From: a virus
Direction: 5' to 3' (one strand)
UHGV virus genome: UHGV-0213688
DNA: 61,436 nucleotides
Under the pieces are notes generated by a model, which saw nothing but the letters and a program-made list of their open reading frames with translations, was not told the DNA's origin and ran no database searches. Below, in pieces: positions 32,262 through 49,302 of this stretch. A program made the position numbers and the translations under genes. The stretch's first letter is position 1. Each line of letters begins with the position of its first letter.

Positions 32262-34604
32262 ATGGAACTGTTTCCCGCTGAAATTAAAGCTTTCCCACAA
32301 TGGGCGGTCGCCGATGCGGATAAAAAGCCTCTTGTATGGGACAACGATATTGGACGTTTGATGGCGGCGGACGTTACCGATCCGGATATGCTTATGACGT
32401 TTGAAGCTGCCAAAGGTTGCGCCGCGCATTTCAACAAACCTTATATTGGCTTTGTGCTTACTGCACAAGACCCGTTCACCTGCATCGATCTGGATGTGAA
32501 GAACGCGACCAATGAACCTGATCCCAAGAAGCACACGACGCCGGAACAGTTGCGCCGCTTCGAACAGATCATGACTGCGTTCGATACTTACACCGAAGTA
32601 AGTCGCTCAGGTTTGGGTGTCCACCTGTGGTTAAGAGGTAACATCGGTAAAGGTCGCCGACGTGATGGTGTCGAGGTTTATAGTCAGGAGCGTTTTATTA
32701 TCTGCACGGGCAATCCTGTTTATAACAAACCAGTTGCAGAACGTGATCATTATCTTACTATGCTTGTGAATGAAATTGATCTTCAGCGCAAGACATATGA
32801 AATTGAACTGGTAGAAAAAGATCCGGTAGAAGACGATGCGACTATTCACCAGCGAGCACTTGAAGCGGACAACGGGGATAAGTATGCACGCCTATTCAAT
32901 GGCGAATGGGTTGAAATGGGATTCCCTTCCCAGTCTGAAGCAGACCTTGCCCTTATTTCTATGTATGCATTCTACACAGAAAGTAATGAGCAATGCCGTC
33001 GTCTGTTCCGTTACAGTGCACTGGGCAAACGTGAGAAGGCTAATAAGAACAATGTTCATATTGACCGTTGTTTGCGCATGTGCCGCGGTCGTATGGAGCG
33101 TGAGCGCATTGCCCAGGAAAACGTAGCGGCGCTGGCGCGGGATTACGCTGCTCGTATGCAAGCCGCACACAGTGCAATGCAGCAGGTAACGGAAATGCCT
33201 GTGATTGTCGAAACAACACAGGGGCAGACAGTAGTTGCGGAAAGTACATCCATTGATGCAACAGCTATTGACTGGCCACCGGGACTCGCTGGGGAGCTTG
33301 CGAAGTACATCTACAAAGCATCCGTCCGACCAGTAAAAGAAATCTCTATTGTGACTGCGCTCGGCTTTATGGCTGGGGTATGCGGGAAAGTATGGCAGAT
33401 TCCGCAATCCGGTCTTAATGGTTATTTTGTCTTAATTGCTCGTTCTGGTGTTGGTAAAGAGACGTTGAACAGTGGGCTGTCTAATATAGTTAGCCAGATT
33501 CAGGACCAGTTTCCGCAGATTCATAGCTTTGTATCTTTTGACAGATGCGCTTCTGGATCTGCACTGCGTAAATCTTTTGCAGACAAACAATCTTTTATCA
33601 ACTTGAACGGTGAGTTTGGTAAGATTATCAAAGCAATGGCAACGGCTCCAGCAGGATCGCCGATGCAAAGTTTCAAGAATGACCTTACCGATGTTTATCA
33701 AAAGTCCGGTCAGATGTCTATCGTTGGTGGTATGTCTTATTCTGATAAGGCTAATAATACTGAAGCTCAACAAGGTGTGGCATATAGCATCATGGGCGAA
33801 ACGACACCGGATACGTTCTTTGAAGCATTAACCCGTGAAATGATGGAGGACGGATTCTTATCCCGTTTCCATGTTGTACGCTATGAAGGTGATCGACCAC
33901 CTTTAAACAAAAATCAGCAGACTACAATGGATCAGCATTTGAAGGACATGGTGTGCCATCTTGTTAACCACACTTTAGTAACAATGGCAAAGCATCAGAG
34001 TATTGAAGTACAGTTTAGCCCGGATGCGGAAACATTATGCGATCAGTTTAACGATGAATGTGATCGCAATATTAACGCAACCAAAGACGAAGCGATCCGT
34101 CAGCCGTGGAACCGTGCTCACCTGAAGGTCTTGCGACTTTCTGCCTTGTTAGCTGTGGGTGAGAACTGGATCAATCCGGTGGTACAAACCTATCATGTGC
34201 AATGGGCTTTGGACTTCGTGCGTCATGGGCAGGATATTATTATGAAGGAATGGCATAGCGGAGGCATTGGGACTAATGATGAAGCTCGTATCCGTACTAT
34301 GTGTCAGGTCTGTGTGAATTATCTAACTAAAGACTGGGTGAAAGTTAAACGTGTAGATTTGCGCAAAGAAGGTATTATCACGCGGGGTGATATTACTACG
34401 CGTCTTGCAAGTAAGTCCGCGTTTAAAAACTATCATCACGGATTATCCGCTGCAATCGAGTCTACAATCAAGGAGATGGTTGCTATGGGTGCACTTGTTC
34501 CGGTAACACGGGAGGAGACTATTAAACTGGGATTTACTGGGGCAGCTTGGCGCATTACGCAAGATGTTGAAGGAATTATGGCAAACTTAGGTGAAGAGGA
34601 ATAA
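32262..34604 (+). CDS. DNA primase/helicase (PrimPol-type primase domain + P-loop helicase domain)
   Basis: 780 aa; N-terminal DLD and SRSGLGVHLW motifs; central phage/plasmid primase-like region; Walker-A-like ARSGVGKET. Confidence 0.7.
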   Translation: MELFPAEIKAFPQWAVADADKKPLVWDNDIGRLMAADVTDPDMLMTFEAAKGCAAHFNKPYIGFVLTAQDPFTCIDLDVKNATNEPDPKKHTTPEQLRRFEQIMTAFDTYTEVSRSGLGVHLWLRGNIGKGRRRDGVEVYSQERFIICTGNPVYNKPVAERDHYLTMLVNEIDLQRKTYEIELVEKDPVEDDATIHQRALEADNGDKYARLFNGEWVEMGFPSQSEADLALISMYAFYTESNEQCRRLFRYSALGKREKANKNNVHIDRCLRMCRGRMERERIAQENVAALARDYAARMQAAHSAMQQVTEMPVIVETTQGQTVVAESTSIDATAIDWPPGLAGELAKYIYKASVRPVKEISIVTALGFMAGVCGKVWQIPQSGLNGYFVLIARSGVGKETLNSGLSNIVSQIQDQFPQIHSFVSFDRCASGSALRKSFADKQSFINLNGEFGKIIKAMATAPAGSPMQSFKNDLTDVYQKSGQMSIVGGMSYSDKANNTEAQQGVAYSIMGETTPDTFFEALTREMMEDGFLSRFHVVRYEGDRPPLNKNQQTTMDQHLKDMVCHLVNHTLVTMAKHQSIEVQFSPDAETLCDQFNDECDRNINATKDEAIRQPWNRAHLKVLRLSALLAVGENWINPVVQTYHVQWALDFVRHGQDIIMKEWHSGGIGTNDEARIRTMCQVCVNYLTKDWVKVKRVDLRKEGIITRGDITTRLASKSAFKNYHHGLSAAIESTIKEMVAMGALVPVTREETIKLGFTGAAWRITQDVEGIMANLGEEE

Positions 34605-36393: not shown

Positions 36394-36465
36394 TCCTTGT
36401 GATCAACAGAACTTCAATATAAAATTCTTTATGAAGTGTTTTACATTAAAGTTATGGAGACAAAC

Positions 36466-36933
36466 ATGGCAGTAAATATTCGCGCTAAAGGTCAACGCGG
36501 TGAGCGGGAAGTATGCGATTTCTTTAATGCAATTTATGCTGAAATCTACGCAGAGCTGGGGATGCAGTTACCGGAAAAACCTATTGCTCAGCGTAACCAG
36601 AATCAAAGTGCGGTCGGTGGTTGTGACATTAGCAATACGTGCCACCATGCGGTTGAAGTAAAAAACCACGCTACGCCACAAGTAAACACATGGTGGAAGC
36701 AGACTGTTCAATCGGCTAAAGAGCTTGGAAGATATCCAGTTCTGATGTATAAAATAGAACGTAAAGGATGGAAGGTTGTTCTACCGCTCAATCCAGTCGT
36801 CTTTAGCAATGGTGAGTGGCAGTGGTATGAAGTTAAAGACTCCATCCGCGCGGAAATTAGTCTTGATGATTACCGCATTATTTTTAAAGCGCACGCGAAA
36901 CAATGGTTAATTGATCGCGGTTCAATTCAATAA
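36466..36933 (+). CDS. putative PD-(D/E)xK-type nuclease (possible resolvase)
   Basis: ORF 36436..36933; preferred ATG 36466 after GGAG; GGCDIS...HHAVEVKNH fits a D...E-x-K arrangement. Confidence 0.4.
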   Translation: MAVNIRAKGQRGEREVCDFFNAIYAEIYAELGMQLPEKPIAQRNQNQSAVGGCDISNTCHHAVEVKNHATPQVNTWWKQTVQSAKELGRYPVLMYKIERKGWKVVLPLNPVVFSNGEWQWYEVKDSIRAEISLDDYRIIFKAHAKQWLIDRGSIQ

Positions 36934-36942
36934 GGTGAAATT

Positions 36943-37536
36943 ATGACTGACGTATTAAATAGCACAGAAAGTTCTTTTGTAATTGATGTTGAAAAATTTG
37001 CCGCAGTATTAAGCACAATTCCGGTCGGTGTGAAACGCTTAACAGACAGCGCCATCTTGCCAGCGTTCGCTACTGCTGGGGCAGCTTGCTTTGACCTGCA
37101 CGCGGATCTCAAAAGTGAAGACGGTTGTGAACAAATCATTTTCTCTTACGAGCACATATTCCGCACAGGGTTGGCGTTTGATATCCCTAAAGGGTATGCG
37201 CTTATGGTCTATTCCCGTAGTGGGCACGGATTCAAAAATGACGTGCGTTTGGCAAACTGCGTGGGCGTTATTGATAGCGATTACACTGGCGAAGTTAAAG
37301 TTAAGCTTACTATTGATCATGATGGTTGTTTTACCGTTAGTCATGGTGATCGTATTGCGCAAGCTATGCTTATTAAGGTGCCTTGCGTGCAACTGGTAGA
37401 AGTAGAAGAACTCAAAACTACTGAGCGCGGTGCTAATGGATTCGGGTCAACTGGCACGTCTGCCAATGTGGTTACAGCAGAGGAAGAAGCTGCTACGCAT
37501 CCGATCATGACTTCACGTCATTTAGATAAAAAATAA
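36943..37536 (+). CDS. dut: dUTP diphosphatase
   Basis: conserved dUTPase motifs: AGAACFDL, YSRSGHG, GVIDSDYTGE, RIAQ, RGANGFGSTG. Confidence 0.8.
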   Translation: MTDVLNSTESSFVIDVEKFAAVLSTIPVGVKRLTDSAILPAFATAGAACFDLHADLKSEDGCEQIIFSYEHIFRTGLAFDIPKGYALMVYSRSGHGFKNDVRLANCVGVIDSDYTGEVKVKLTIDHDGCFTVSHGDRIAQAMLIKVPCVQLVEVEELKTTERGANGFGSTGTSANVVTAEEEAATHPIMTSRHLDKK

Positions 37537-37599
37537 GTCTTGCTTAAGCACATGGATGTGTTACTATACATACATCGAAACACAACAGAGGACAGAAAA

Positions 37600-38010
37600 A
37601 TGTTCGACGCAGATAAAGCAGTACAAGCAACAGAAGCAGATGTAATTGAGTGGTATAAAACTAAAGCGGAATTGCAGAAGCTGCAAGCTCGTGAGCGAGC
37701 ACTCCGTGATAAGATTATTAAGTCCTATTTCCCAGCGCCGTCTGAGGGGACTAATAAAGTTGAAATTACTGGCGGGGTTATGAAAATGACCCACAAGATT
37801 GATCGTAAGATTGATCTTCCAAGCCTTAACGGAATCTTGGGCGATCTGATTAAAGTTGGTGTTAACGTTGATCAGCTTGTGGAAAATAAACCTGTATTGA
37901 AAGTTGCGGCTTGGCGTAAACTTACAGCGGAGCAAGCCGCAGTCTTCAACCAGTGCGTTGAATCTAAAGTTGGATCTGCGTCACTGGAAATTGTTCCAAA
38001 TAAAGCTTAA
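37600..38010 (+). CDS. hypothetical protein
   Basis: ORF 37540..38010; preferred ATG 37600 with GAGGA upstream. Confidence 0.5.
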   Translation: MFDADKAVQATEADVIEWYKTKAELQKLQARERALRDKIIKSYFPAPSEGTNKVEITGGVMKMTHKIDRKIDLPSLNGILGDLIKVGVNVDQLVENKPVLKVAAWRKLTAEQAAVFNQCVESKVGSASLEIVPNKA

Positions 38011-38051
38011 CCACATTAACGGGCGGTCAATCCGCCCAACAGGAAACTAAA

Positions 38052-38843
38052 ATGCGTAAAGAATTTCAGAAAGCTTATCATGCCCTGTTAAAAGGTGTTG
38101 TAACTGTCAAAGTTAAGTTTGAAGCAGGTGGTCGTCTTTATACCTACCGTGCCCTGGAAAGCGACGAATTACATCCGGGCGATACTGTTGTTATTCAATA
38201 TAACGGCAAGTTCTTTACTACGGAAGTAGTAGAAGTGGATCAGTATCCGGACTTCAGCAAGGATGTTGAATATAAATGGATTGTGTGCAAAGTGGACGAA
38301 GAACGCTATGCCCACTTCCTGGAACAGGAACACATGTTTGAACAACAGATGTTGGCTTTGTCCGCAAACAAAGAAGCAGAAGCAACCAAGAAAGAACTGA
38401 TCGAGTTGTACGGTGAAGAAAATGTCGGTTACTTAGCGGGCATTGCTCAGGGTAAAGTGACGGTCCCGACGTTCAATGACGTTATTGACACTCTGTTGCA
38501 AAATTTTGCAGATGGTGCAGATCTTAACGGTAGTGTTGTTGAGTTTAAAACAGCCCCTTATAATGGTGAAGCTGTGCAACGTCAGCATGATCTGTATGTT
38601 CAGGTGCTGGGACGCGGTTTACGCAAGATGGAAGGTCCGCGTCTAGACTGGGAAAGCCGTTACAATAAACACATTGCAAACATGCATACTCTGAACGGTT
38701 TCACCTGGCGTGACTTTATGGCACCGGGCGCAAATAAGGAGAATAAAGAGGACGTAAAAGCTGCTAAGATTTTGTTTGATCGTTTTAAGCGTAAGCAGTA
38801 TCCGATCGAGCAATATATCGAAGAGTTCAAAAACAAACTGTAA
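38052..38843 (+). CDS. hypothetical protein
   Basis: 263 aa; AGGA RBS; followed by terminator. Confidence 0.55.
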   Translation: MRKEFQKAYHALLKGVVTVKVKFEAGGRLYTYRALESDELHPGDTVVIQYNGKFFTTEVVEVDQYPDFSKDVEYKWIVCKVDEERYAHFLEQEHMFEQQMLALSANKEAEATKKELIELYGEENVGYLAGIAQGKVTVPTFNDVIDTLLQNFADGADLNGSVVEFKTAPYNGEAVQRQHDLYVQVLGRGLRKMEGPRLDWESRYNKHIANMHTLNGFTWRDFMAPGANKENKEDVKAAKILFDRFKRKQYPIEQYIEEFKNKL

Positions 38844-38849
38844 TAAACT

Positions 38850-38874
38850 AAAGGGGTCTTTAGACCCCTTTTTA
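38850..38874 (+). terminator. rho-independent terminator
   Basis: AAAGGGGTC-TTTA-GACCCCTTTTT. Confidence 0.7.
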
Positions 38875-38886
38875 ACAGGAGTTATT

Positions 38887-39510
38887 ATGCGAGTAACAAT
38901 TATTTCTGATGCAAGTTTTTGTCCAAATACAAAAGCCGCAGGCTATGGCGGATGGGTAGTTTGCAACCGCGGAAGTAATGCTAATGGCGGGCCATTACGC
39001 GGTGCTCCGGATAACAATGCAGCTGAAACAATGGCGATCTGCAATGTCATTTGGGAAGGATTGAAAGCTAATTTAATTCAATCGGGTGATCATTTAATTG
39101 TGCAAACAGATTGTTCAACAGCTATTAAAGTGTATAAAGAGGCAAGCTGGAAAAGCGAACAGGAAGGTACAGCTTTCAAATGGTTGAACGATCAACTTCG
39201 TAAATATAACCTTACTATTGAGTTTCGCCACGTTAAAGGTCATACAAGTAATCAGGACCAGCGTAGCAAAGCTCAAAGATTTTGTGATGAACGTGCGCGT
39301 TCTGCTATGCGATTGGAAAGAAGTAAGATCCGTTTGCAAGAATGCAAAGAGCTTATTTCCGAAGCAAAGAAAAAGGAAAATAGACCTAAAAAGGGTAGCG
39401 GACATTTACGCCGTAATACCCGTATGAAAGAGAAAGCTCAAAAAGCTGCAATACTTTTAGAACGTTGCGGTATACGCAGCAGTTCCCATCAACATGATTA
39501 TTATGAATGA
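38887..39510 (+). CDS. ribonuclease H
   Basis: ORF 38776..39510; preferred ATG 38887 after AGGAG; RNase H-like pattern ISDASFC...GYGGW...AE...TDC...VKGH...NxD. Confidence 0.65.
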   Translation: MRVTIISDASFCPNTKAAGYGGWVVCNRGSNANGGPLRGAPDNNAAETMAICNVIWEGLKANLIQSGDHLIVQTDCSTAIKVYKEASWKSEQEGTAFKWLNDQLRKYNLTIEFRHVKGHTSNQDQRSKAQRFCDERARSAMRLERSKIRLQECKELISEAKKKENRPKKGSGHLRRNTRMKEKAQKAAILLERCGIRSSSHQHDYYE

Positions 39511-39518
39511 GGTTAACA

Positions 39519-40433
39519 ATGGCATTTAAACCACATTTAGCGACTGACGCGGTTGAAGAAAAGATTAAGTTTCCATGCTGCATACTGCCTAAAATCGACG
39601 GTGTACGCGGTTTAAATCCGGATGGGCAAATAGTAGGGCGCAGCTTAAAGCTGTTTAAAAACCGCCATACAAGCGCAATTTTCAGCGGTCCTCAATACAT
39701 GGGCTATGACGGTGAGCTTGCAGCAGGAGTTGAAACGGACCCGGATCTGTGCCGTAAAACAACCAGTGCGGTAAACACAATTGAAGGTGAACCATTCCTG
39801 AAATGGCACATCTTTGATCTGTGCGCGGAAAGTGTTGCCGAGCTGGGCTATGAAGCACGCTACAACATGATGAAAGACTTTATAACCACACAGCACGCGA
39901 AAGGTGAACTGCTCGATCTGCAAGTTGTGCCAATGTATGTGGTTAAGTCTTTGCAAGAGCTGCTTTACTGGGAAAACATCTGGCTTGATATGGGTTATGA
40001 AGGTATTATTATCCGTGATCCAAACAAGCCTTACAAACATGGGCGCGGTACAGTTCGAGAAGGCGGATACCTTCGTATTAAACGCTTTATTCAGGAAGAT
40101 GCTATTGTCCTCGATATTATTGAGGGTGAAACTAATCTTAATGAAGCTACCGTTAACGAGCTGGGAAGGACTACACGATCTTCACATCAGGAAAATAAAG
40201 TTCCTAACGGTATGATTGGGACGCTTGTTTGTAAAGACGTTAAGACGGGTAATACAATCAACGTTAGTCCTGGTAAACTAACACAAGAGGATAAGATTTA
40301 TTATTGGAATAACCCTGACAAGATTAAAGGTTGGACTATTTCATATAAACACTTCCCTCATGGTGTTAAAGATAAACCGCGTTTTGCTAACTTTATGCAT
40401 TTCCGCGATGAAAGTGATCAGGCTTTAGATTAA
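39519..40433 (+). CDS. ATP-dependent DNA ligase
   Basis: nucleotidyltransferase motif I LPKIDGVRG (KxDG); size about 305 aa; preferred ATG 39519. Confidence 0.7.
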   Translation: MAFKPHLATDAVEEKIKFPCCILPKIDGVRGLNPDGQIVGRSLKLFKNRHTSAIFSGPQYMGYDGELAAGVETDPDLCRKTTSAVNTIEGEPFLKWHIFDLCAESVAELGYEARYNMMKDFITTQHAKGELLDLQVVPMYVVKSLQELLYWENIWLDMGYEGIIIRDPNKPYKHGRGTVREGGYLRIKRFIQEDAIVLDIIEGETNLNEATVNELGRTTRSSHQENKVPNGMIGTLVCKDVKTGNTINVSPGKLTQEDKIYYWNNPDKIKGWTISYKHFPHGVKDKPRFANFMHFRDESDQALD

Positions 40434-40498
40434 AAAGTAATTGAGGGTTCAAAGTATATTACGTTACAATGAGCACGAACTTAAAAGAGAGGCGTTAA

Positions 40499-41227
40499 AT
40501 GGCCATTGAAATTAAAATGTCTTCACAAGTAGTGCAAGACACAGGCGTTAAAATTCTGGTTTACGGTGAAGCGGGTATGGGTAAAACCAGCCTTGTAGCC
40601 ACGCTACCTAAACCAATTTTGATCAGCGCAGAGTCCGGTCTGTTATCTATTGCAGCGGAAAACCTTAATCGCGTTTATGGTAACATGGGATTGCCGATCG
40701 TTTATGATATCCCAGTTATCGAAGTTAAATGTCTGGAGGACGTTGAAGCTGCTTATCAGTGGTGCGTAACTCCAGCTAACCAGCAGTATTTCGATTCTAT
40801 TGCGCTTGACAGCTTGAGCGAAATTGCTGAACAATGTTTAAACAATGCGAAAAAAGGAACAAAAGATCCTCGTCAAGCTTATGGTACTTTGCTTGAAAAG
40901 ATGCAAGATCTGATCCGTAAATTTCGCGATATTCCTGGCAAACATGTTTATATGTCTGCTAAAATGGGCAAAGACAAAGATGAAGTCTCCGGTGTTACCG
41001 CGTATGCTCCATCTATGCCTGGGTCCAAATTGGGGCAAATGCTCCCTTATTTCTTCGACGAAGTATTTCGTCTGAATGTAAATAAGGATCAGCAAGGTAA
41101 CTCATATCGTTACTTGCAAACTCAACCGGACTTTAATACAATCGCTAAGGATCGTTCGGGACGTTTAGATGCGGTTGAAGTCCCACACTTAGGTTCTGTT
41201 ATCAACAAAATGAAAGGTATCAACTAA
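40499..41227 (+). CDS. RecA-like AAA ATPase (Sak4-like recombination protein)
   Basis: Walker A GEAGMGKTS near N-terminus, about 240 aa; followed by DUF669-like gene as in Sak4 modules. Confidence 0.55.
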   Translation: MAIEIKMSSQVVQDTGVKILVYGEAGMGKTSLVATLPKPILISAESGLLSIAAENLNRVYGNMGLPIVYDIPVIEVKCLEDVEAAYQWCVTPANQQYFDSIALDSLSEIAEQCLNNAKKGTKDPRQAYGTLLEKMQDLIRKFRDIPGKHVYMSAKMGKDKDEVSGVTAYAPSMPGSKLGQMLPYFFDEVFRLNVNKDQQGNSYRYLQTQPDFNTIAKDRSGRLDAVEVPHLGSVINKMKGIN

Positions 41228-42096
41228 TGACTATGCCAACTAATTTCCACTTTGACGCGAGCAGCTATCAAGCACCTTCTTACGGCGCATTGCCGAAAGG
41301 TTGGTATAAAGCAGTAATTGAAGCATCTGAATTTAAACCGACCAAAAATGGCGGTATAGCAATCCAGGTAACGTTTAGCATCATTGATGGTTTTGCTAAA
41401 GGTCGTAAAATCTTTGCTCGTTATAACGTTATCAACGACAACGAAGATACTGTGCGTATCGCTTACGAGCAACTGGGCGCTCTTTCCCACGCTGTAGGCG
41501 TAATTCGCTGGGATACCCCTGCTCAACTGCACAACATTCCGCTGAACCTGCGTCTGAAAGTTCGTTCTCAGGAAGGCTATGAAGACAGCAACGAGCCGAA
41601 CGGTTACGCTAACATCAACGATCCGGTTAAGTATGCAGAAAAAGAAGCAGGTGCTCCGGCAATGGGTGCTCAAGCAGCAGTAGCCAACCCGTTCGGTGCA
41701 GGTGCTCCAGCACAGCAGCCAGCATTCCCGGGCGCAGCACCGCAGCAGCCAGCAGCTAACCCGTTTGCTCAGCAACAGCAAGCTCCGGTACAGCAACAGC
41801 AGCAGCCAGTTCAGCAGCCTGTTCAGCAACCAGCACCGCAGCAGGGCGCAGCAGCTCAACCGTGGCAGAACGCAGCACCGCAGCCGTGGGATAATCCTGC
41901 TCAAAACGCAGCGCCGCAGCAGCCAGTTCAGCAAGCTCCGGTACAACAGCCAGTAGCACCGGAAGCAGCTCAGCAGCCGTGGGCGCAGCAGGTAGCACAG
42001 CCGGGTCAGGCAGCAGCACCACAGCAGCAAGCGCAGCCACAGCAGCAAGCTGAACCGCATCCGGCACAAGCAGCAGTCCCGCCGTGGCAGCAGTAA
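41227..42096 (+). CDS. DUF669-like protein with long Q/P/A-rich disordered C-terminal tail
   Basis: globular N-terminal ~140 aa then ~150 aa of QQP/PQQ repeats with recurring PW(Q/D/A) motifs. Confidence 0.5.
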   Translation: MTMPTNFHFDASSYQAPSYGALPKGWYKAVIEASEFKPTKNGGIAIQVTFSIIDGFAKGRKIFARYNVINDNEDTVRIAYEQLGALSHAVGVIRWDTPAQLHNIPLNLRLKVRSQEGYEDSNEPNGYANINDPVKYAEKEAGAPAMGAQAAVANPFGAGAPAQQPAFPGAAPQQPAANPFAQQQQAPVQQQQQPVQQPVQQPAPQQGAAAQPWQNAAPQPWDNPAQNAAPQQPVQQAPVQQPVAPEAAQQPWAQQVAQPGQAAAPQQQAQPQQQAEPHPAQAAVPPWQQ

Positions 42097-42122
42097 GTTA
42101 ACTCTCCCTCTGTAGTGTCCCT

Positions 42123-42150
42123 AAGCCGTCGAAAGACGGCTTATTTTTCT
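42123..42150 (+). terminator. rho-independent terminator
   Basis: AAGCCGTC-GAAA-GACGGCTT followed by ATTTTTCT. Confidence 0.65.
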
Positions 42151-42161
42151 AAGGTACTCCA

Positions 42162-43070
42162 ATGGCTATTTATATTGCAGAAAAAACACTTCAAGCAATC
42201 AATGACGGTGTGCAAAAAGATCAGGGCGGGACTTACCGTAAATATCTCGGCGTAGTTATTCCCACAATTGAAGACGCATATCGCCCCGAAAGCGGCAACC
42301 GCAGTCACTTAGGTGCTTCCCTTATTGGACAACAATGTGCTCGCAAGCTGTTCTACGGGTATCGCTGGGCTACTCGTAAAGAGTTCGATGGACGCCAGCT
42401 CCGCCTATTTAACCGCGGACATCTGGAAGAAGCGCGTTTCATTGCTATGCTTCTTGCGGCAGGTATGCAGGTCTACCAGCAGGATGAAAACGGACACCAG
42501 TTCCGTATCAGCGAAGCTGGCGGACACTTTGGCGGTTCCTGCGATGGTGTGGTTATAGGTTGTCCGGACGTTCAGCCTGGGATGCCCGTGCTTACTGAAA
42601 TGAAAACTCACAACGATAAGTCATTCAAGAAGCTGAAAGCTAAAGGTGTCAAAGAAGCTAAACCTGAGCACTATGTACAGATGAACGTGTACATGCGAAA
42701 GCTTGGACTTGGTGCAGCGTTATATCTTGCTGTAAACAAGAACGATGATGAAGTTTACGCAGAAATTATTCCATTTGATCCGGTTACTGCGGACATGTAT
42801 ATTGATCGTGGTGTGCAGATTGCTATTGCTACGGATATTCCTGACCGTGCTTTTAAAGACTCTACATTCTTCGAATGCAAATGGTGCGACCACTCCTCAT
42901 TGTGCTGGCGTAAAACTATGCCGGAAGTAAACTGTCGCACATGTCAATTTCTTGAGCCAAAAGATGATGGAACATGGTATTGCAATTTTCATTCCGTTGC
43001 AGTAGATACGCAGGGACAGAAAGTTGGTTGTCAAAACTATCAAGTAGCTAATTATTACGGGAAAGATTGA
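42162..43070 (+). CDS. PD-(D/E)xK exonuclease, Cas4-like with C-terminal Cys cluster
   Basis: GSCDGVV and LTEMKTH motifs; C-terminal CKWCDHSSLC...CRTC...C cluster. Confidence 0.55.
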   Translation: MAIYIAEKTLQAINDGVQKDQGGTYRKYLGVVIPTIEDAYRPESGNRSHLGASLIGQQCARKLFYGYRWATRKEFDGRQLRLFNRGHLEEARFIAMLLAAGMQVYQQDENGHQFRISEAGGHFGGSCDGVVIGCPDVQPGMPVLTEMKTHNDKSFKKLKAKGVKEAKPEHYVQMNVYMRKLGLGAALYLAVNKNDDEVYAEIIPFDPVTADMYIDRGVQIAIATDIPDRAFKDSTFFECKWCDHSSLCWRKTMPEVNCRTCQFLEPKDDGTWYCNFHSVAVDTQGQKVGCQNYQVANYYGKD

Positions 43071-43071
43071 T

Positions 43072-45048
43072 ATGCAACTCCGCGATTATCAACAGGAAGC
43101 AGTTTATAGCGTATTCCGCTATTTTGATGCTGAAAAGGGTAACGCGGGGAACCCTTTGATCCTGTTACCAACAGGGACAGGAAAATCGCTCGTTATCGCG
43201 GGGTTCCTCGATCTGCTTTATAAATGGTATCCAAACCAGCGCGTAATGATGTTAACTCACGTCAAAGAGTTAATTGCGCAAAACTATGATAAATTAATGA
43301 AAGTCTGGCCTGAAGCGCCAGCAGGTATTTACAGCGCAGGTTTGAAGCGTAAAGAAGTTTATAATCTTATCACATTTGCGGGGATTGCATCTGTTGCTAA
43401 GCATCCTAAAAAGTTCGGCAAGGTTGATCTAATCTTTGTGGATGAAGCGCACCTTATTAGTCCGCGTGATGCAACAATGTATAAGAAGTTCTTTGCAGCA
43501 TTGCGTGAAGTTAACCCGTATTTAAAAATTATCGGTCTTACCGCTACACCTTACCGACTGGGTTACGGCTCAATTGTTAAGGAAAACGAAGACGATGATG
43601 CTTTATTTGATAAAGTAACGTTTGATGCAACTACCCCTGAAGCCTTTAACTGGTTCCTGGAGCAAGGCTATTTGCTTCCGGTTGTGCCAAAGCGTACAAA
43701 GATGGAACTGGACCTCAATGGTGTAGGGAAACGCGGCGGTGAGTTTATTCAGAGTGAGCTGCAAAGTGCGGTGAACCGCGACGACGCAACACTCCGAGCA
43801 CTTGAGGAAGCCATTGAATGTGGTGAAGACCGTCAAAGTTGGCTTATATTTTGTTCTGGTATTGAACACGCTAAAGATGCGTGTGATATGCTAAACGATA
43901 TGGGTATTAGTTGCGGATGTATTCACTCAAAGCTTGATGCAAAAGAGCGTGACGAGATTATTGAAAAGTTCAAGCGTGGAGAGTTTCGAGCGCTGACAAA
44001 TAACAACGTCTTAACCACAGGTTTCGACCATCCAATGCTTGATCTGATTATCATGCTTCGCCCAACTGCCTCGGCGGTGCTATGGGTTCAGATGTTGGGT
44101 CGCGGTACGCGTCCGGTATATGCGGAGGGCTTTGATCTTTCCACGCAGGAAGGCCGCTTGCAAGCTATTGCAGCAAGCCCTAAGCAGAACTGCCTTGTAC
44201 TGGATTTCAGCGGTAATACGCGTCGTTTGGGCCCTATTAACGACCCTGTTAAACCCAAGCGCCCGGGCGAAAAAGGTGCTGGTACTGCTCCGGTTAAAGA
44301 ATGCGATGTGTGCGGGTCGTATAATCATGCATCTGCTCGCTATTGTGGTGGCTTTGCACCAATTCCTATGGACAGCGTTACACAGGAACAAGTTCAACAA
44401 TTATATTTGAAGGGATTCAGACTACGTGGAACGGATTATGTTAAAGAAGGATTTTGCGGTCATGAGTTTAAGTTCCAGACGAAACTTAAAAAGGCAGCAA
44501 GTACCGAAGCACTGATCAAACAGGACATTCCGGTAGTTGAAGACTTCAAAGTTACGCATGTGACTTATGCGAAGCACACTAAACGCAATGACAGCTCCAA
44601 ACCTCCAACAATGAAGGTGACTTATTATTGCGGTAGTAAAATATTCAGCGAATGGGTAGCTCTACTTCATGGTGACTGGGCGGGTCGTAAAGCGGTCGCA
44701 TGGTGGAAGAAAAGGACGCATCTTCCTTTACCACAAACTATTGAAGAAGCTCTTGATGTTGCTGCAATGCTTAAAACACCGAAATACATCAAAGTTCATA
44801 CCAATAAGAAATGGCCTGAGATATTGAACTACGATTATGATGGTACGTGTTTCGGTAAGTTTGAAGCTCCACAGGACGACGAAGCTATTCAAGTTAAAGT
44901 ATACGGGCAAGATGGAACAACCGAAGGTCCGAGCTATAACGATGATGTGAGCTGGGATGATATTGTTTCGCAGAATACGCAAGGTATAACAGTGAACAAT
45001 GTGGTTAATCCTGTACAAGTAGATGATCCAGATTACGTTCCGTTCTAA
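43072..45048 (+). CDS. superfamily 2 DNA helicase (DEAH-type)
   Basis: DYQQEAV (Q-motif-like), Walker A PTGTGKS, VDEAH box, helicase C-terminal region, Cys4 zinc ribbon CDVCGS...CGG. Confidence 0.75.
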   Translation: MQLRDYQQEAVYSVFRYFDAEKGNAGNPLILLPTGTGKSLVIAGFLDLLYKWYPNQRVMMLTHVKELIAQNYDKLMKVWPEAPAGIYSAGLKRKEVYNLITFAGIASVAKHPKKFGKVDLIFVDEAHLISPRDATMYKKFFAALREVNPYLKIIGLTATPYRLGYGSIVKENEDDDALFDKVTFDATTPEAFNWFLEQGYLLPVVPKRTKMELDLNGVGKRGGEFIQSELQSAVNRDDATLRALEEAIECGEDRQSWLIFCSGIEHAKDACDMLNDMGISCGCIHSKLDAKERDEIIEKFKRGEFRALTNNNVLTTGFDHPMLDLIIMLRPTASAVLWVQMLGRGTRPVYAEGFDLSTQEGRLQAIAASPKQNCLVLDFSGNTRRLGPINDPVKPKRPGEKGAGTAPVKECDVCGSYNHASARYCGGFAPIPMDSVTQEQVQQLYLKGFRLRGTDYVKEGFCGHEFKFQTKLKKAASTEALIKQDIPVVEDFKVTHVTYAKHTKRNDSSKPPTMKVTYYCGSKIFSEWVALLHGDWAGRKAVAWWKKRTHLPLPQTIEEALDVAAMLKTPKYIKVHTNKKWPEILNYDYDGTCFGKFEAPQDDEAIQVKVYGQDGTTEGPSYNDDVSWDDIVSQNTQGITVNNVVNPVQVDDPDYVPF

Positions 45049-46602: not shown

Positions 46603-47310
46603 ATGAATATTAATCAACAAGCTCCCGAGTCTCGTTCTAAAGAAAACGATATGTATTTAGACGTGCATTCGGTATTCTCTACCATTCAGGGTGAAGGTCC
46701 ATTCTGCGGTCAACCTGCGGTATTTGTGCGCCTTGCTGGATGTAACCTGCAATGCCCGGGCTGCGACACGGATTATACTGTTGGTCGTTCTCTTTACCAC
46801 ATTGTTGATATCATGCGTTTAATCGAAAGCCGTAAGCTGGAATCTGGCAATAGCACCTCACTTGTGGTTATCACTGGGGGCGAACCATTCCGCCAGCAAA
46901 TTAACCCGTTTATTGAACAACTGTTATCACGCGGGTATCTTGTGCAGATTGAAACGAATGGGTCTATGCCTTTACCTAAGAACTTTTCCCAGCTACCTGT
47001 CATTGTATGCAGTCCTAAGACTTCAAAAATTCATCCTACTGTGCTGTACCGAGCAAACGCATTTAAATATGTGCTTAAAGCGTGCTGTGTAAACGTGGAA
47101 GACGGTTTACCGCTTCAGGCATTAGATCATCAAGCTACGCCATTTATCGCTAGACCTCCGAAGGGGTTCAAGGGTAAGATATATTTACAGCCAATGGACG
47201 AGCAGGATGAAGATCTTAACCACAGTAACATCCAAGCGGTTGTCCAAAGCTGTATGAAACACGGGTACACGTTGCAGCTTCAGGTTCACAAATATATCGG
47301 GGTGGAATAA
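46603..47310 (+). CDS. queE: 7-carboxy-7-deazaguanine synthase (radical SAM)
   Basis: VFSTIQGEGPFCGQPAVFVRLAGCNLQCPGCDTDYT matches the QueE N-terminal cluster-binding signature; AGAGGA RBS. Confidence 0.8.
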   Translation: MNINQQAPESRSKENDMYLDVHSVFSTIQGEGPFCGQPAVFVRLAGCNLQCPGCDTDYTVGRSLYHIVDIMRLIESRKLESGNSTSLVVITGGEPFRQQINPFIEQLLSRGYLVQIETNGSMPLPKNFSQLPVIVCSPKTSKIHPTVLYRANAFKYVLKACCVNVEDGLPLQALDHQATPFIARPPKGFKGKIYLQPMDEQDEDLNHSNIQAVVQSCMKHGYTLQLQVHKYIGVE

Positions 47311-47312
47311 CT

Positions 47313-47573
47313 ATGAGCGAAAAATATATGTTTGAAAATCGTCCTATTGATGGTATGACCTGGAACAAACTCCAGGAAGCTGCTTGTCACGGTGCATTAG
47401 TTTGCACTAAAGAGCGCGATGTTGAAAAGGCCGGACCTGTTTATAAACTCCGCGACCCTTGTAATGAAGAATACTGCTTTGTGTTTAGCGATGAAGCTGA
47501 ACAGTTTAGTAATCCTTACCGCACCGCTGATGAAGCTGCGGAAATGAGTCGTAAATATGCGGATCAATTATGA
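47313..47573 (+). CDS. hypothetical protein inside deazaguanine module
   Basis: 86 aa; GGGGTGGAATAACT-ATG. Confidence 0.5.
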   Translation: MSEKYMFENRPIDGMTWNKLQEAACHGALVCTKERDVEKAGPVYKLRDPCNEEYCFVFSDEAEQFSNPYRTADEAAEMSRKYADQL

Positions 47574-47582
47574 GGTGGAATA

Positions 47583-47795
47583 ATGATCACTTTGGAAGAA
47601 GCGAAACAGCATCAGGAAATGATCACTGAGCTGGTAGAAAAACTTAATTCTGCAATTGCTCACGCTACTATGCAGGGTGTGCATGTTGAATTAGATATTA
47701 ATCACGTTAGTACAATTGGAGCACGCAATCATCCGATTGTGATGTCAAACGTAACAATCAACCCTTGTGATATTAAAGGTGTAGAAGATGAATGA
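47583..47795 (+). CDS. hypothetical small protein (possible paralogue of next gene)
   Basis: 70 aa; GAGGTGGAATA-ATG, same RBS context as upstream gene. Confidence 0.45.
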   Translation: MITLEEAKQHQEMITELVEKLNSAIAHATMQGVHVELDINHVSTIGARNHPIVMSNVTINPCDIKGVEDE

Positions 47796-47976
47796 AGAAA
47801 CTGTAATTCTTATGCAGAAAATTCAACGTTTACAGGACGAGTTGAATGACGCTATTTGCCGCGCTGCATCAAAGAAAATACATTCGGAGCTTGAAATACA
47901 CCAGCGCCGGGTAACATCTGAAGCGGTGGTGGAACAAGTAGTCATTAACCTCAATATTAGTCTTAAAGGTTTCTAA
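47788..47976 (+). CDS. hypothetical small protein
   Basis: 62 aa; overlaps upstream gene by 8 nt; AAAGGTG RBS. Confidence 0.45.
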   Translation: MNEETVILMQKIQRLQDELNDAICRAASKKIHSELEIHQRRVTSEAVVEQVVINLNISLKGF

Positions 47977-47977
47977 A

Positions 47978-48700
47978 ATGAACAAATTAGATAAACTGGT
48001 ATTCCCTGTAAAAAATCATAACTCCGCCGTTGTGGTCCTGTCTGGCGGTCAGGACAGCGTGACCTGTTTAGGTCTTGCACTTAATAACTATGATAAGGTT
48101 TACGCTATTGGTTTTGCATACGGTCAACGTCACACTGTGGAATTAGCTTGCGCTGAACAGATATGTAAAGAACACGATGTCCCATTTGTTGTCTTTGAAT
48201 TACCTGCTTTGAAACAGATTGGCAATAGCGCTTTAATTGGGAACGAAGGTGATGTTAACGAACATCACGAACAGCACAACAACCTTCCAGCAAGCTTTGT
48301 GCCAAACCGTAATGCTCTTTTCCTGACTACCGCGCACGCCTACGCGCAGAAAGTTGGTGCCCGATATGTGGTTACAGGCGTCTGTGAAACAGACTATAGC
48401 GGTTATCCGGATTGCCGCCAGCAGTTTGTAGACTTGCTTGAAGCTACGTTAAACGTTGGATATGAAACAGATATTCATTTCGTTACCCCGCTTATGCGTT
48501 TAAATAAAGCAGAAACGTTTGAGCTGGCGGATAAGGTTGGCTTCTTAACCACAGTAATTGAACAGTCCCATACTTGCTATAACGGTGTCCGTCGCACTCT
48601 GCATGACTGGGGCTATGGTTGCGGTGAATGCCCTGCGTGCAAACTGCGTGCTAAAGGGTACAGTGAATTTATGGATAACGCTTACAGCAAACACGTTTGA
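47978..48700 (+). CDS. queC: 7-cyano-7-deazaguanine (preQ0) synthase
   Basis: PP-loop VVLSGGQDS; C-terminal Zn-binding Cys cluster CYNG...CGECPACKLR; 240 aa with no amidotransferase fusion. Confidence 0.85.
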   Translation: MNKLDKLVFPVKNHNSAVVVLSGGQDSVTCLGLALNNYDKVYAIGFAYGQRHTVELACAEQICKEHDVPFVVFELPALKQIGNSALIGNEGDVNEHHEQHNNLPASFVPNRNALFLTTAHAYAQKVGARYVVTGVCETDYSGYPDCRQQFVDLLEATLNVGYETDIHFVTPLMRLNKAETFELADKVGFLTTVIEQSHTCYNGVRRTLHDWGYGCGECPACKLRAKGYSEFMDNAYSKHV

Positions 48701-48820
48701 TCTTACCGCGAAAACCGCACCGCTAGCGCATTGTTTAGGGTGCGGGAACCCAACTATACTACTAAACCTTTTAAACCCAACAACCAGCGAATAACGCTGT
48801 TAAAACTGGAGAACAAAAGT

Positions 48821-49300
48821 ATGAAATTTATCGTTGCTTATCTGGCTGCAATTACATTCGTAAACCTGGGCTTTTCCTACCTTCCAATGCTCAATACGCC
48901 TCTTGGCGTGGTCCCGATGATGGCTTTCTTTGTAGGTATTATCTTTGTGTTGCGTGACTACGCACAGCGTAACGCTGGTAAAGGCGTTATCCCTGCAATG
49001 ATTGTGGGTTGCATCCTTAGCTGGGTATTTGGGGATCCTGCTGTTGTAGTTGCATCCGTTGCATCCTTTGCTCTTAGCGAGTTTGCGGACTATGCGGTAT
49101 ACACGATTACTAAGAAGCCGTTTCATCAACGTGTATTTATTAGCTCTTTGGTAGCTGTACCGATTGACTCCATTGTGTTCTTAAGTATTATAGGTATTGT
49201 TAATCCGGGATCAATGGTAGCAATGAGCTTAAGTAAGTTCACAGCATCTGCTATTCTTTGGGTTGTTTACGAAGTTCATTCACGTACAGCGAGAGCGTAA
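48821..49300 (+). CDS. YhhQ/DUF165-like membrane protein (queuosine-precursor transporter family)
   Basis: ORF 48731..49300; preferred ATG 48821 after GGAG; about 159 aa, 4-5 hydrophobic helices; VLRDYAQRNAG and SEFADYAVY resemble YhhQ motifs; sits between queC and queD. Confidence 0.5.
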   Translation: MKFIVAYLAAITFVNLGFSYLPMLNTPLGVVPMMAFFVGIIFVLRDYAQRNAGKGVIPAMIVGCILSWVFGDPAVVVASVASFALSEFADYAVYTITKKPFHQRVFISSLVAVPIDSIVFLSIIGIVNPGSMVAMSLSKFTASAILWVVYEVHSRTARA

Positions 49301-49302
49301 AA

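What the first reader, a model, noticed from the sequence alone, without database searches (positions are those of the whole stretch)
32262..34604. Replication set combining a PrimPol-type primase-helicase with a family B polymerase and a clamp-like protein
The 780-aa protein has archaeo-eukaryotic PrimPol motifs (DLD, SGxGxHxW) fused to a P-loop helicase domain. The polymerase at 53814..55799 is a compact family B enzyme (DIE exonuclease motif, DxxSYYPS, KxxxNGSFG, NTDG). The 317-aa gene just before it has a DnaN-like FPDxRRxL motif. This is an unusual mix for a siphovirus-like genome. The clamp call is weak and deserves testing, because a phage-encoded beta-clamp serving a B-family polymerase would be notable.
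Basis: partly seen in the sequence, partly recalled or inferred. Interest (0 to 1): 0.5.

Follow-up and report, generated by a model that had tools for sequence, protein, structure and literature searches.

The report
Known Seuratvirus replisome with beta-clamp
The three genes are real and are the already-annotated replication genes of a Seuratvirus-type coliphage (an NrS-1-like primase-helicase, a divergent family B polymerase and a true bacterial-type sliding clamp). Comparison with relatives suggests that a short peptide at the start of the polymerase binds the clamp, and possibly the tail of the DNA-modifying enzyme DpdA as well.

Summary
The window is a Seuratvirus (Queuovirinae) genome, 93-98% identical in DNA to phages phiG7, KS_A8, Seurat and CAjan. 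All three ORFs exist as described.

- **780-aa protein:** an archaeo-eukaryotic PrimPol, an NrS-1-type helix bundle and a DUF3987 AAA+ helicase.
- **317-aa protein:** a confident three-domain beta-clamp (pLDDT 92.8; TM 0.8 to DnaN structures).
- **661-aa protein:** a divergent but complete family B polymerase that Pfam does not detect.

None of this is unusual. The clamp family occurs in 360 phage records and the polymerase family in 823, and GenBank and the phage Vid5 paper already name them.

What I add is comparative. The polymerase starts with a disordered but invariant peptide (RxDxxG[FLM]FWxD) that resembles E. coli Pol II's QLGLF clamp-binding motif.
- The peptide is missing in the PolB clade that lacks a clamp gene.
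- It also sits on unrelated family A polymerases encoded next to homologous clamps.

The neighbouring DpdA ends in a conserved Q-E-L-F tail, and so do DpdAs of other clamp-encoding phages; DpdAs of actinophages do not.

No clamp loader is encoded. Binding is inferred, not shown.

The parts
32262..34604 (+). Primase-helicase, 780 aa. Domains: AEP PrimPol (aa 1-200), NrS-1-type helix-bundle domain (aa ~224-290), DUF3987 AAA+ helicase (aa ~340-655; Walker A ARSGVGKE at 393-400), and a C-terminal region of about 120 aa.
   Evidence: PHROG 3022, E = 4e-274. Pfam DUF3987 and NrS1-1_pol-like_HBD. Profile against PDB: 7OLA 9e-32, NrS-1 4e-19. Invariant D76, D78, G119, H121, G398, K399 and E400 across 55 homologs.
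51345..52265 (+). DpdA, the DNA 7-deazaguanine transglycosylase (306 aa). It ends in VMELF (nt 52248-52262), a candidate clamp-binding tail.
   Evidence: PHROG 887, E = 1e-95. 99.7% identical to CAjan DpdA, which is essential for dPreQ0 in DNA (PMC6884629). 47 of 53 distinct homolog C-termini end in LF followed by at most 3 residues, against 29 of 2522 background ORFs.
52262..52728 (+). Two small ORFs (76 and 78 aa) of unknown function between dpdA and the clamp gene.
   Evidence: ORF list. PHROG 38388, function unknown, for the first; no hit for the second.
52728..53681 (+). Beta-type (DnaN-like) sliding clamp, 317 aa, three domains.
   Evidence: AF2 pLDDT 92.8, pTM 0.87. Foldseek against PDB: the top 50 are all DnaN, E about 1e-20, TMq 0.77-0.83. 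The profile hits beta-clamps at 8e-5. PHROG 947, E = 5e-82. Pfam is sub-threshold only (22.3 against 27).
53678..53824 (+). 48-aa ORF that bridges the clamp stop and the polymerase start, with an ATGA overlap at each end. Function unknown. This slot varies between relatives.
   Evidence: Sequence read directly. phiG7 has two different ORFs in this position.
53814..53948 (+). N-terminal 45-aa peptide of the polymerase: MRTDAIGFFWQDLPP...PPERTWERPDYLPNL. Candidate clamp-binding module.
   Evidence: pLDDT is 45-60 for residues 1-20, yet R2, D4, G7, F9, W10, D12, P28, W33, Y38, L39 and P40 are invariant. It is absent from clamp-less PolBs. It is present on family A polymerases encoded next to homologous clamps.
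53814..55799 (+). Divergent family B DNA polymerase with proofreading motifs, 661 aa. ExoI D71/E73, ExoII N120/D125, ExoIII Y219/D223, motif A D369xxSYYPS, motif B K419xxxNGSFG, motif C N471-T-D473-G.
55809..55829 (+). Terminator-like GC hairpin followed by a T-run, immediately after the polymerase stop codon. Likely the end of the dpdA-clamp-polB transcription unit.
   Evidence: Consensus scan. The number of such sites in the region is no higher than in shuffled sequence, so this is a weak call.
36436..45048 (+). Rest of the replication and recombination module: RusA (36436-36933), dUTPase (36943-37536), RNase H (38776-39510), ATP-dependent ligase (39507-40433), Sak4-like ATPase (40499-41227), DUF669 SSB (41227-42096), Cas4-like exonuclease (42162-43070) and SF2 helicase (43072-45048). 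No clamp loader.
   Evidence: Pfam and PHROG hits.
46603..51063 (+). preQ0 synthesis genes upstream of dpdA: QueE (46603-47310), QueC without a Gat domain (47978-48700), QueD (49887-50423) and FolE (50425-51063).
   Evidence: PHROG hits. The gene content matches the dPreQ0 group represented by CAjan (PMC6884629).

Best explanation
This is the ordinary, already-annotated replication module of a Seuratvirus (Queuovirinae).

**Shown by homology and fold**
- The 780-aa protein is an NrS-1-like PrimPol + HBD + DUF3987 ring-helicase fusion.
- The 317-aa protein is a true three-domain beta-type sliding clamp.
- The 661-aa protein is a divergent, proofreading-competent family B polymerase.

**Inferred roles**
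- The primase-helicase unwinds the fork and lays down primers.
- The clamp is the polymerase's processivity factor.
- The polymerase attaches to the clamp through a disordered N-terminal peptide (RxDxxG[FLM]FWxD, core G-Phi-F). This peptide resembles the C-terminal QLGLF motif by which E. coli Pol II binds beta.
- Because the phage encodes no clamp loader, the host DnaX complex presumably loads the clamp.
- RNase H and the ATP-dependent ligase mature the lagging strand.
- DpdA, encoded just upstream, then exchanges G for preQ0.
For: **Identity of the phage**
- 93-98% nucleotide identity to annotated Seuratvirus genomes, with the same gene names.
- The clamp is 100% identical to that of phage KurtStettler.

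**Protein identities**

**Polymerase-clamp pairing**
1. The polymerase gene lies downstream of the clamp gene on the same strand in all 69 clamp-positive loci (gap between the frames -174 to +687 nt, median -16), and ATGA stop-start overlaps link the genes in the window.
2. The first ~20 residues are disordered but invariant.
3. Of 115 distinct PolB loci with enough flank, 64 of 67 with the N-terminal extension have a clamp gene. None of the 48 that start directly at ExoI has one.
4. PolBs paired with divergent clamps carry divergent short N-termini that keep an aromatic pair: MFFDDV, MFFEEV, VKFFDLP.
5. The same 45-aa peptide (41% identity, E = 5e-9) heads an unrelated family A polymerase in phage Bhz54. 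Nothing else in the two proteins aligns.
6. tblastn with the peptide finds 65 phage records, some with PolA and some with PolB. Most listed hits have an annotated clamp at or next to the match.
7. Paracoccus phage R3 has a clamp and the peptide but no dpdA, so the peptide's partner is not DpdA.
8. The polymerase C-terminus is conserved equally in lineages with and without a clamp, so it is not the clamp-specific element.

**Clamp pocket**
- Residues aligned to E. coli beta R152, T172, P242, R246, Y323 and R365 are identical, and the C-terminal ...IGMR tail is retained. The pocket residue list is from my own knowledge.
Against: - No binding was tested.
- The peptide lacks the canonical Gln of QL[SD]LF.
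- The clamp-less PolBs form essentially one clade (about 3 state changes on an NJ tree). The 64/0 table therefore reflects few independent events, and its Fisher p-value is inflated.
- Clamp-less PolB phages such as AH2 also have a different SSB and a different exonuclease. The peptide could therefore bind another protein of the shared module instead.
- One locus (L053) has the motif but no clamp within 6 kb.
- Pocket-aligned columns are only slightly more conserved than average (0.70 against 0.65).
- No clamp loader is encoded, so loading by the host complex is pure inference.
- The clamp fails Pfam's gathering threshold.
Confidence: 0.7

Rival explanations
1. The clamp's main client is the DNA-modification machinery (DpdA), not the polymerase. 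On this reading the polymerase's N-terminal peptide binds some other protein of the shared module, such as the DUF669 SSB, the SF2 helicase or the primase-helicase.
For: - In the metagenomic loci the clamp co-occurs with dpdA and the que genes: 44 of 52 clamp-positive loci have DpdA, against 0 of 39 clamp-negative loci.
- DpdA carries a conserved C-terminal Q-E-L-F tail.
- Cellulophaga phage phiSM has a clamp inside its que/dpdA cluster and no annotated polymerase anywhere in the genome.
- Streptococcus phage MS1 has dpdA directly followed by dnaN.
- Clamp-less PolB phages differ in several module genes, not only the clamp.
Against: - The clamp family is in 360 phage records and DpdA in 237. 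Several clamp-bearing groups (the Pseudomonas phage 73/Ab26 type, Rhodobacter RcTitan, Acinetobacter Loki) are not among the listed DpdA hits, but I did not check their whole genomes.
- Paracoccus R3, checked over its whole genome, has clamp + polymerase + peptide and no dpdA.
- The clamp gene lies upstream of the polymerase gene on the same strand in every clamp-positive locus.
- The peptide core G-[FL]-F resembles known beta-binding motifs.
Confidence: 0.12
2. The clamp homolog is a host-takeover factor. It would sequester the host clamp loader or Pol III, or form mixed dimers with host beta, and so shut down host replication rather than serve phage synthesis.
For: - No phage clamp loader is encoded.
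- Kazlauskas et al. note that stand-alone PolIII-beta homologs in viruses raise questions about their role (PMC4889955).
Against: - The clamp gene lies directly upstream of a polymerase gene in all 69 clamp-positive loci, and the polymerases next to it, of two unrelated families, carry the same dedicated peptide.
- At 15% identity to host beta, heterodimer formation is unlikely.
- No toxicity data exist either way.
Confidence: 0.05
3. The PrimPol-helicase is itself the main replicase, as reported for phage NrS-1, and the PolB-clamp pair serves only repair or late synthesis.
For: The architecture is the same as NrS-1 polymerase: Prim/Pol + HBD + helicase ring (PMC7102993).
Against: - This phage also encodes a complete proofreading PolB with a clamp, plus RNase H and a ligase. 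That set is typical of RNA- or DNA-primed discontinuous replication.
- The PolB family is conserved in 823 phage records and is used as a marker gene (PMC5758909).
Confidence: 0.06

Closest known systems
Replication genes of Seuratvirus/Nonagvirus/Vidquintavirus (phages Seurat, CAjan, 9g, Vid5)
   Same: - Same genes in the same order: dpdA, clamp, polB, with the primase 20 kb upstream.
- 93-100% identity to Seuratvirus members.
- Vid5 ORF29 and ORF30 are described as PolB plus a beta subunit, with HHpred 100% to Pol III beta (PMC6266253).
   Different: Nothing of substance. The window has a different small ORF between the clamp and polB genes than phiG7 does.
E. coli DNA polymerase II with the beta clamp
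   Same: - A family B polymerase working on a three-domain beta-type clamp.
- Pol II's motif QLGLF has the same L-G-L-F core as the phage peptide (e.g. DALGLFW in relatives).
- Pol II is among the best sequence and fold matches.
   Different: - The phage motif is at the extreme N-terminus rather than the C-terminus. It lacks the Gln and is followed by an invariant Trp and Asp.
- The clamp is encoded by the phage and is only about 15% identical to host beta.
- The polymerase lacks the usual PolB N-terminal domain, and its motif C is NTDG.
Phage T4/RB69 gp43 polymerase with the gp45 clamp
   Same: A phage-encoded PolB tethered to a phage-encoded sliding clamp by a short terminal peptide (established knowledge).
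   Different: - gp45 is a two-domain, PCNA-like trimer loaded by phage gp44/62 (PMC4889955).
- Here the clamp is a three-domain beta type and no loader is encoded.
NrS-1 primase-polymerase and SaPI5 primase-helicase (PDB 6A9W, 7OLA)
   Same: - AEP PrimPol domain followed by a helix-bundle domain and a C-terminal hexameric AAA+ helicase (PMC7102993).
- Similar Walker A motif: GTGKG in NrS-1, GVGKE here.
   Different: - Only the first ~260 residues align by sequence.
- The helicase half matches Pfam DUF3987, which is classed as SF6/MCM-like (PMC4889955). NrS-1's helicase was described as SF3-like.
- NrS-1 has no separate replicative polymerase.
Hda (N-terminal QLSLPL), and DNMT1 binding to PCNA
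   Same: - Hda shows that a beta-binding motif can sit at an extreme N-terminus.
- DNMT1-PCNA is a precedent for a DNA-modifying enzyme recruited to new DNA through the sliding clamp.
- Both are from my own knowledge.
   Different: Neither is homologous to the proteins here. The DpdA-clamp link is only inferred from a conserved tail and from gene neighbourhood.

Membership tests
Bacterial beta sliding clamp (DnaN / Pol III beta) | Three tandem domains of the clamp fold in one chain | tested here: met
   AF2 pLDDT 92.8. Full-length Foldseek matches to about 50 DnaN chains, TMq 0.77-0.83, E about 1e-20.
Bacterial beta sliding clamp (DnaN / Pol III beta) | Sequence membership by the curated Pfam models (DNA_pol3_beta, _2 and _3) | tested here: not met
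   Only the central domain is hit, at 22.3 bits against a cut-off of 27. The family profile does hit solved beta-clamps over residues 2-257 (E = 8e-5 to 1e-4).
Bacterial beta sliding clamp (DnaN / Pol III beta) | Head-to-tail homodimer ring around DNA | not testable with these tools
   Only a monomer could be modelled.
Bacterial beta sliding clamp (DnaN / Pol III beta) | Hydrophobic peptide-binding cleft between domains II and III | tested here: inconclusive
   Columns aligned to E. coli R152, T172, P242, R246, Y323 and R365 are identical, and V247, L177, V360, V361 and M362 are conservative. Pocket columns are barely more conserved than average (0.70 against 0.65). The alignment is at 15% identity.
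Family B DNA polymerase | Exonuclease motifs I-III and polymerase motifs A, B and C | tested here: met
   D71/E73, N120/D125, Y219/D223, D369xxSYYPS, K419xxxNGSFG and N471-T-D473-G are all invariant in 59 homologs. The first Asp of the usual DTD is Asn.
Family B DNA polymerase | PolB fold (exonuclease, palm, fingers, thumb) | tested here: met
Family B DNA polymerase | Pfam DNA_pol_B / DNA_pol_B_exo1 hit | tested here: not met
   No Pfam hit even at E <= 10. PDB sequence hits to the palm region only (1S5J 1e-5; profile 6e-8).
Archaeo-eukaryotic primase, PrimPol type (NrS-1-like) | AEP motifs I (DxD), II (sGxGxH) and III, and homology to solved PrimPols | tested here: met
   D76, D78, S114, G119 and H121 are invariant. 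Profile hits to 7OLA (9e-32) and NrS-1 (4e-19) over residues 7-251.
Archaeo-eukaryotic primase, PrimPol type (NrS-1-like) | Pfam Prim-Pol (PF09250) hit | tested here: not met
   No hit at E <= 10. Only AEP-TOTE at E = 0.08. The NrS-1 HBD model passes (30 bits against 27.9).
DUF3987 replicative helicase (SF6/MCM-like AAA+) | Pfam PF13148 above threshold, with a Walker A motif | tested here: met
   49-50.7 bits against a cut-off of 27. G398, K399 and E400 are invariant. Helicase activity of a DUF3987 protein is shown in PMC11724360.
DUF3987 replicative helicase (SF6/MCM-like AAA+) | Hexameric ring and DNA unwinding | not testable with these tools
Canonical beta-clamp-binding motif QL[SD]LF | Pentapeptide Q-L-[SD]-L-F in a disordered terminus | tested here: inconclusive
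   The PolB N-terminus A-I-G-F-F (relatives A-L-G-L-F) matches 3-4 of 5 positions and lacks Q. It lies in a pLDDT 45 segment. The DpdA tail is [VI]-Q-E-L-F. Binding was not tested.
Genus Seuratvirus (Queuovirinae) | High nucleotide identity and synteny with type members | tested here: met
   93-98% identity over the primase and the dpdA-polB region to Seurat, CAjan and phiG7. Gene order matches phiG7. Only these regions were compared, not the whole genome.

The most novel reading that the evidence does not exclude
The phage beta-clamp may be a hub rather than only a processivity factor.

- A portable ~45-aa N-terminal peptide lets whichever polymerase sits next to the clamp gene, family B or family A, dock on it.
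- The DNA-guanine transglycosylase DpdA docks through a C-terminal Q-E-L-F tail, so that insertion of 7-deazaguanine is coupled to the replication fork.
- The dpdA-clamp association recurs in three distant lineages: Queuovirinae-like modules, Streptococcus Dp-1-like phage MS1, and Cellulophaga phiSM, which has no annotated polymerase of its own.
- I found no paper linking DpdA to a clamp in the searchable library.
Probability: 0.4. Interest if true: 0.65.

Novelty: already known. Interest (0 to 1): 0.3.

Why it matters
As stated, the finding confirms annotation that already exists, so it matters little. It does show that a reader working from raw sequence can call a highly divergent clamp and a PolB that Pfam misses.

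The by-products could matter more:
- **A portable docking peptide.** A peptide shared by PolA and PolB enzymes would explain how phages swap polymerases while keeping the same clamp.
- **A clamp-tethered DpdA.** This would give a testable mechanism for how about a third of the guanines in CAjan-type DNA are replaced quickly enough to escape restriction. It would also be a bacterial-virus parallel to PCNA-coupled maintenance methylation.
- **A polymerase family outside Pfam.** This very abundant phage PolB family has more than 7,900 protein clusters and 823 phage records, lies outside Pfam DNA_pol_B, and carries an invariant NTDG motif C.

Tried and rejected
1. **Primase N-terminus MELF as a third clamp-binding motif.** Rejected: it is conserved only among close relatives, and the family consensus there is variable.
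2. **Polymerase C-terminus (…LEDMGYA) as the clamp motif, as in Pol II or T4.** Rejected: it is equally conserved in clamp-less PolBs.
3. **A phage clamp loader.** None found among the ORFs scanned. The only other P-loop proteins are a Sak4-like ATPase, the SF2 helicase and the primase-helicase (synteny with phiG7).
4. **Pfam Prim-Pol and DNA_pol_B at permissive E-values.** No hits. Membership rests on PDB profiles and on fold.
5. **hhalign of the clamp family against E. coli DnaN.** It aligned only domains I-II (probability 83%). A MAFFT alignment with bridging clamps was used for pocket mapping instead, and gave only a weak result.
6. **The 64/0/3/48 co-occurrence table as strong statistics.** Tempered: the clamp-less PolBs are essentially one clade.
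7. **Other clamp clients in the window.** A search for terminal QxxLF or G-Phi-F motifs found only PolB and DpdA. The QLRLF in the Cas4-like exonuclease and the QLSLL in PolB are internal.
8. **Pseudomonas phage PIP as a control.** Its record is fragmented by frameshifts and was not used.
9. **Literature on DpdA plus clamp, or on phage beta-clamp motifs.** Nothing relevant.
Full report
**What the window is.** The primase gene and the dpdA-polB region are 93-98% identical in DNA to more than 30 annotated E. coli siphophages of the genus Seuratvirus (Queuovirinae): phiG7, KS_A8, Seurat, CAjan and the BASEL phages. Gene order matches phiG7. Structural and lysis genes are on the minus strand of 1-29 kb and 57.6-61.4 kb. 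An early replication and DNA-modification module is on the plus strand of 29-57.5 kb.

**Checking the observation.** The three ORFs exist as stated, and the quoted motifs are present. The only slip is that the clamp motif reads WPDIRRIL. It aligns with E. coli beta FPDYRRVL.

**Primase-helicase (32262-34604).**
- PHROG 'DNA primase', E = 4e-274.
- Pfam finds the NrS-1 polymerase helix-bundle domain (28-30 bits against a cut-off of 27.9) and DUF3987 (49-51 bits against 27).
- Pfam's Prim-Pol model does not hit. However, the sequence hits the SaPI5 primase 7OLA and the NrS-1 primase-polymerase N-terminal domain (7e-11 and 2e-7).
- A profile of 55 homologs raises these hits to 9e-32 and 4e-19 over residues 7-251.
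- The AEP motifs DxD, sGxGxH and the Walker A GK[E] are invariant.
- DUF3987 proteins are regarded as SF6/MCM-like replicative helicases, often fused to AEP primases (PMC4889955). One has measured 5'-3' helicase activity (PMC11724360).
- NrS-1 polymerase has the same Prim/Pol + HBD + ring-helicase plan (PMC7102993). This is a known kind of protein.

**Clamp (52728-53681).**
- Pfam gives only a sub-threshold central-domain hit (22.3 bits against 27).
- PHROG 947 'processivity factor' scores 5e-82 over the full length.
- A 59-sequence profile hits solved beta-clamps over residues 2-257.
- The AlphaFold model is confident (pLDDT 92.8, pTM 0.87). Its top 50 PDB matches are all DnaN, aligned end to end (TMq 0.77-0.83, E about 1e-20, 15% identity).

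**Polymerase (53814-55799).**
- There is no Pfam hit even at E <= 10.
- PHROG 1252 scores 2e-227.
- The palm region hits Sulfolobus PolB1, E. coli Pol II and Pol alpha.
- All exonuclease and polymerase motifs are invariant across 59 homologs. Motif C is NTDG, so the first Asp of the usual DTD is Asn.
- The enzyme is compact because ExoI begins at residue 71. In clamp-less relatives ExoI begins at about residue 10.

**Is the mix unusual?** No.
- tblastn finds the clamp family in 360 phage records, the PolB family in 823 and DpdA in 237.
- The protein database holds more than 7,900 PolB clusters.
- GenBank records already call these genes 'DNA polymerase', 'DNA polymerase beta subunit/processivity factor/replicative clamp' and 'primase'.
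- The Vid5 paper reports PolB followed by a beta subunit, with HHpred 100% to Pol III beta (PMC6266253).
- Kazlauskas et al. list PolIII-beta homologs as a recognised class of phage processivity factors (PMC4889955).

**Does the clamp serve the polymerase?** Several observations point that way.
- *A disordered but invariant N-terminus.* The polymerase's first ~20 residues are disordered in the model (pLDDT 45-60). They are nevertheless among the most conserved in the family (R2, D4, G7, F9, W10, D12, then P28, W33, Y38, L39, P40). Fifty distinct instances give R-x-D-[AS]-[IL]-G-[LFM]-F-W-x-D-x-P. Variants such as DALGLFW line up with the QLGLF motif by which E. coli Pol II binds beta (my own knowledge).
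- *Co-occurrence with the clamp gene.* I fetched 157 related viral loci and scanned them with clamp and polymerase profiles. Among 115 distinct PolBs with enough upstream DNA, 64 of 67 with an N-terminal extension have a clamp gene. In every clamp-positive locus that gene is upstream on the same strand, between 174 nt of overlap and 687 nt away (median gap -16 nt). None of the 48 PolBs that start directly at ExoI has a clamp within 6-10 kb.
- *Co-divergence.* PolBs paired with very divergent clamps have short, divergent N-termini that still begin with an aromatic pair and acidic residues: MFFDDV, MFFEEV, VKFFDLP, LYFFKDD.
- *A caveat on the statistics.* On an NJ tree the clamp-less PolBs form essentially one clade (about 3 state changes). 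This is a few evolutionary events, not 100 independent ones.
- *An independent natural swap.* In Stenotrophomonas phage Bhz54 the gene after the clamp is a family A polymerase (Pfam DNA_pol_A 1e-63). Its first 56 residues are 41% identical to the window's PolB peptide (E = 5e-9), and nothing else in the two proteins aligns.
- *The peptide travels with the clamp.* tblastn with that 46-aa peptide finds 65 phage records. Some have PolA (the Bhz54 group, Vibrio VpKK5/033B, Microcystis Me-ZS1, Synechococcus Ssp-JY38, Sphingomonas, Paracoccus R3, BcepGomr) and some have PolB (Queuovirinae). Most listed hits have an annotated clamp at or next to the match.
- *The partner is not DpdA.* Paracoccus R3 has the clamp and the peptide but no dpdA.
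- *A remaining confounder.* Clamp-less PolB phages such as Burkholderia AH2 also differ in their SSB and exonuclease. Another protein of the shared module therefore cannot be excluded as the peptide's partner.
- *No loader.* No clamp loader is encoded, so loading by the host DnaX complex is an inference.

**A by-product: DpdA.**
- *The gene.* DpdA (51345-52265) is 99.7% identical to CAjan DpdA. CAjan DpdA is essential for the dPreQ0 that replaces about 32% of G in that phage (PMC6884629). It lies two small ORFs upstream of the clamp and ends in ...VMELF.
- *A conserved tail.* Among 53 distinct homolog C-termini from the fetched loci, 47 end in L-F followed by at most 3 residues, and 39 end exactly in LF. 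The consensus is [VI]-Q-E-L-F. The background is 29 of 2522 ORFs.
- *The tail recurs in distant phages that encode a clamp:*
  - Bhz54: EQMELF.
  - Rhizobium RHEph04: EQRLF.
  - Me-ZS1: DQPELF.
  - Ssp-JY38: PDPVLF.
  - Streptococcus phage MS1: KQNRLF. Its dpdA is followed directly by its own dnaN.
- *Controls without a clamp.* Seven DpdAs from actinophages, none with a clamp gene in the short stretch fetched around dpdA, lack such a tail.
- *Cellulophaga phiSM.* This phage has a Pfam-positive clamp inside its que/dpdA cluster and no annotated polymerase in the whole genome. Its DpdA lacks the tail, but the overlapping ParB-like gene ends in SVNLF.
- *Co-occurrence.* In the metagenomic loci, 44 of 52 clamp-positive loci have DpdA, against 0 of 39 clamp-negative loci.
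- *Hypothesis.* DpdA may be a clamp client.
- *Evidence against necessity.* Rosebush, whose close relative Arbiter has neither the DpdA tail nor a clamp gene next to dpdA, still modifies about 28% of G (PMC6884629).
- *Literature.* I found no paper linking DpdA to a clamp.

**Verdict.** The observation and the functional calls are correct, but the feature is the known, annotated replication module of a known phage genus. The parts that may be new rest on comparative inference only and need binding tests. They are a portable N-terminal docking peptide shared by PolB and PolA enzymes, and a clamp-binding-like tail on DpdA.

Noticed in passing
window 51345-52265 (tail at 52248-52262): DpdA ends in VMELF. 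47 of 53 distinct homolog C-termini end in [Q]-[EDG]-L-F, against about 1% of background ORFs. The tail looks like a beta-clamp-binding motif. It is absent from seven actinophage DpdAs that have no clamp gene in the short stretch fetched around dpdA.
   Followed up: partly
L166 (Streptococcus virus MS1) 1375-3484: In a distant Gram-positive phage, dpdA is followed directly by the phage's own dnaN, and DpdA ends in KQNRLF. This is an independent dpdA-clamp association.
   Followed up: partly
L163/L164 (Cellulophaga phage phiSM), clamp at L163 6373-7455: A Pfam-positive beta-clamp sits inside the que/dpdA cluster of a phage with no annotated DNA polymerase anywhere in its 44.5-kb genome. The ParB-like gene that overlaps dpdA ends in SVNLF. 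The gene after the clamp is a BT4734-like AEP primase with a PriCT-2 domain.
   Followed up: partly
L160 20926-22938 (Stenotrophomonas phage Bhz54); also L170, L175, L169: Family A polymerases encoded next to homologous clamps carry the same N-terminal peptide as the window's PolB (MRFDAIGMFWEDVP...PPIPDTGWRPPTYLPDL). The dpdA-clamp-polymerase cassette therefore exists in both PolA and PolB versions.
   Followed up: yes
window 53678-53824: A 48-aa ORF (MTNEETYKEACDKV...SFKDED) bridges the clamp stop and the PolB start, with an ATGA overlap at each end. phiG7 has two different ORFs in this slot, and most relatives have none, so it is a variable insertion point.
   Followed up: no
window 55221-55235 (PolB residues 470-474): Motif C is A-N-T-D-G. 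Asn replaces the first Asp of the usual DTD, and this is invariant in 59 homologs. No Pfam DNA_pol_B model detects this very abundant phage polymerase family.
   Followed up: partly
L053 (IMGVR_UViG_3300030943_000159): The one clear exception to the pattern: a PolB with an N-terminal motif (LDLFWWEE) but no clamp gene detected within the 6 kb on either side.
   Followed up: no
window 56148-56681: This 177-aa ORF matches two separate PHROGs end to end (23744 over aa 1-97, 22730 over aa 110-177). phiG7 has two separate small genes at about this position. It is either a gene fusion or a lost stop codon.
   Followed up: no
window 45721-46533: The ORF begins with a run of about 11 alanines (VKRMSNIEDKKAAAAAAAAAAA...). 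The phiG7 gene at the matching position in the gene order is annotated as an FtrA-domain transcriptional activator.
   Followed up: no
window ~28000-30500: GC skew changes sign here (negative over 1-30 kb, positive over 30-58 kb), at the point where transcription diverges between the structural and early modules. I did not examine it for an origin of replication.
   Followed up: no
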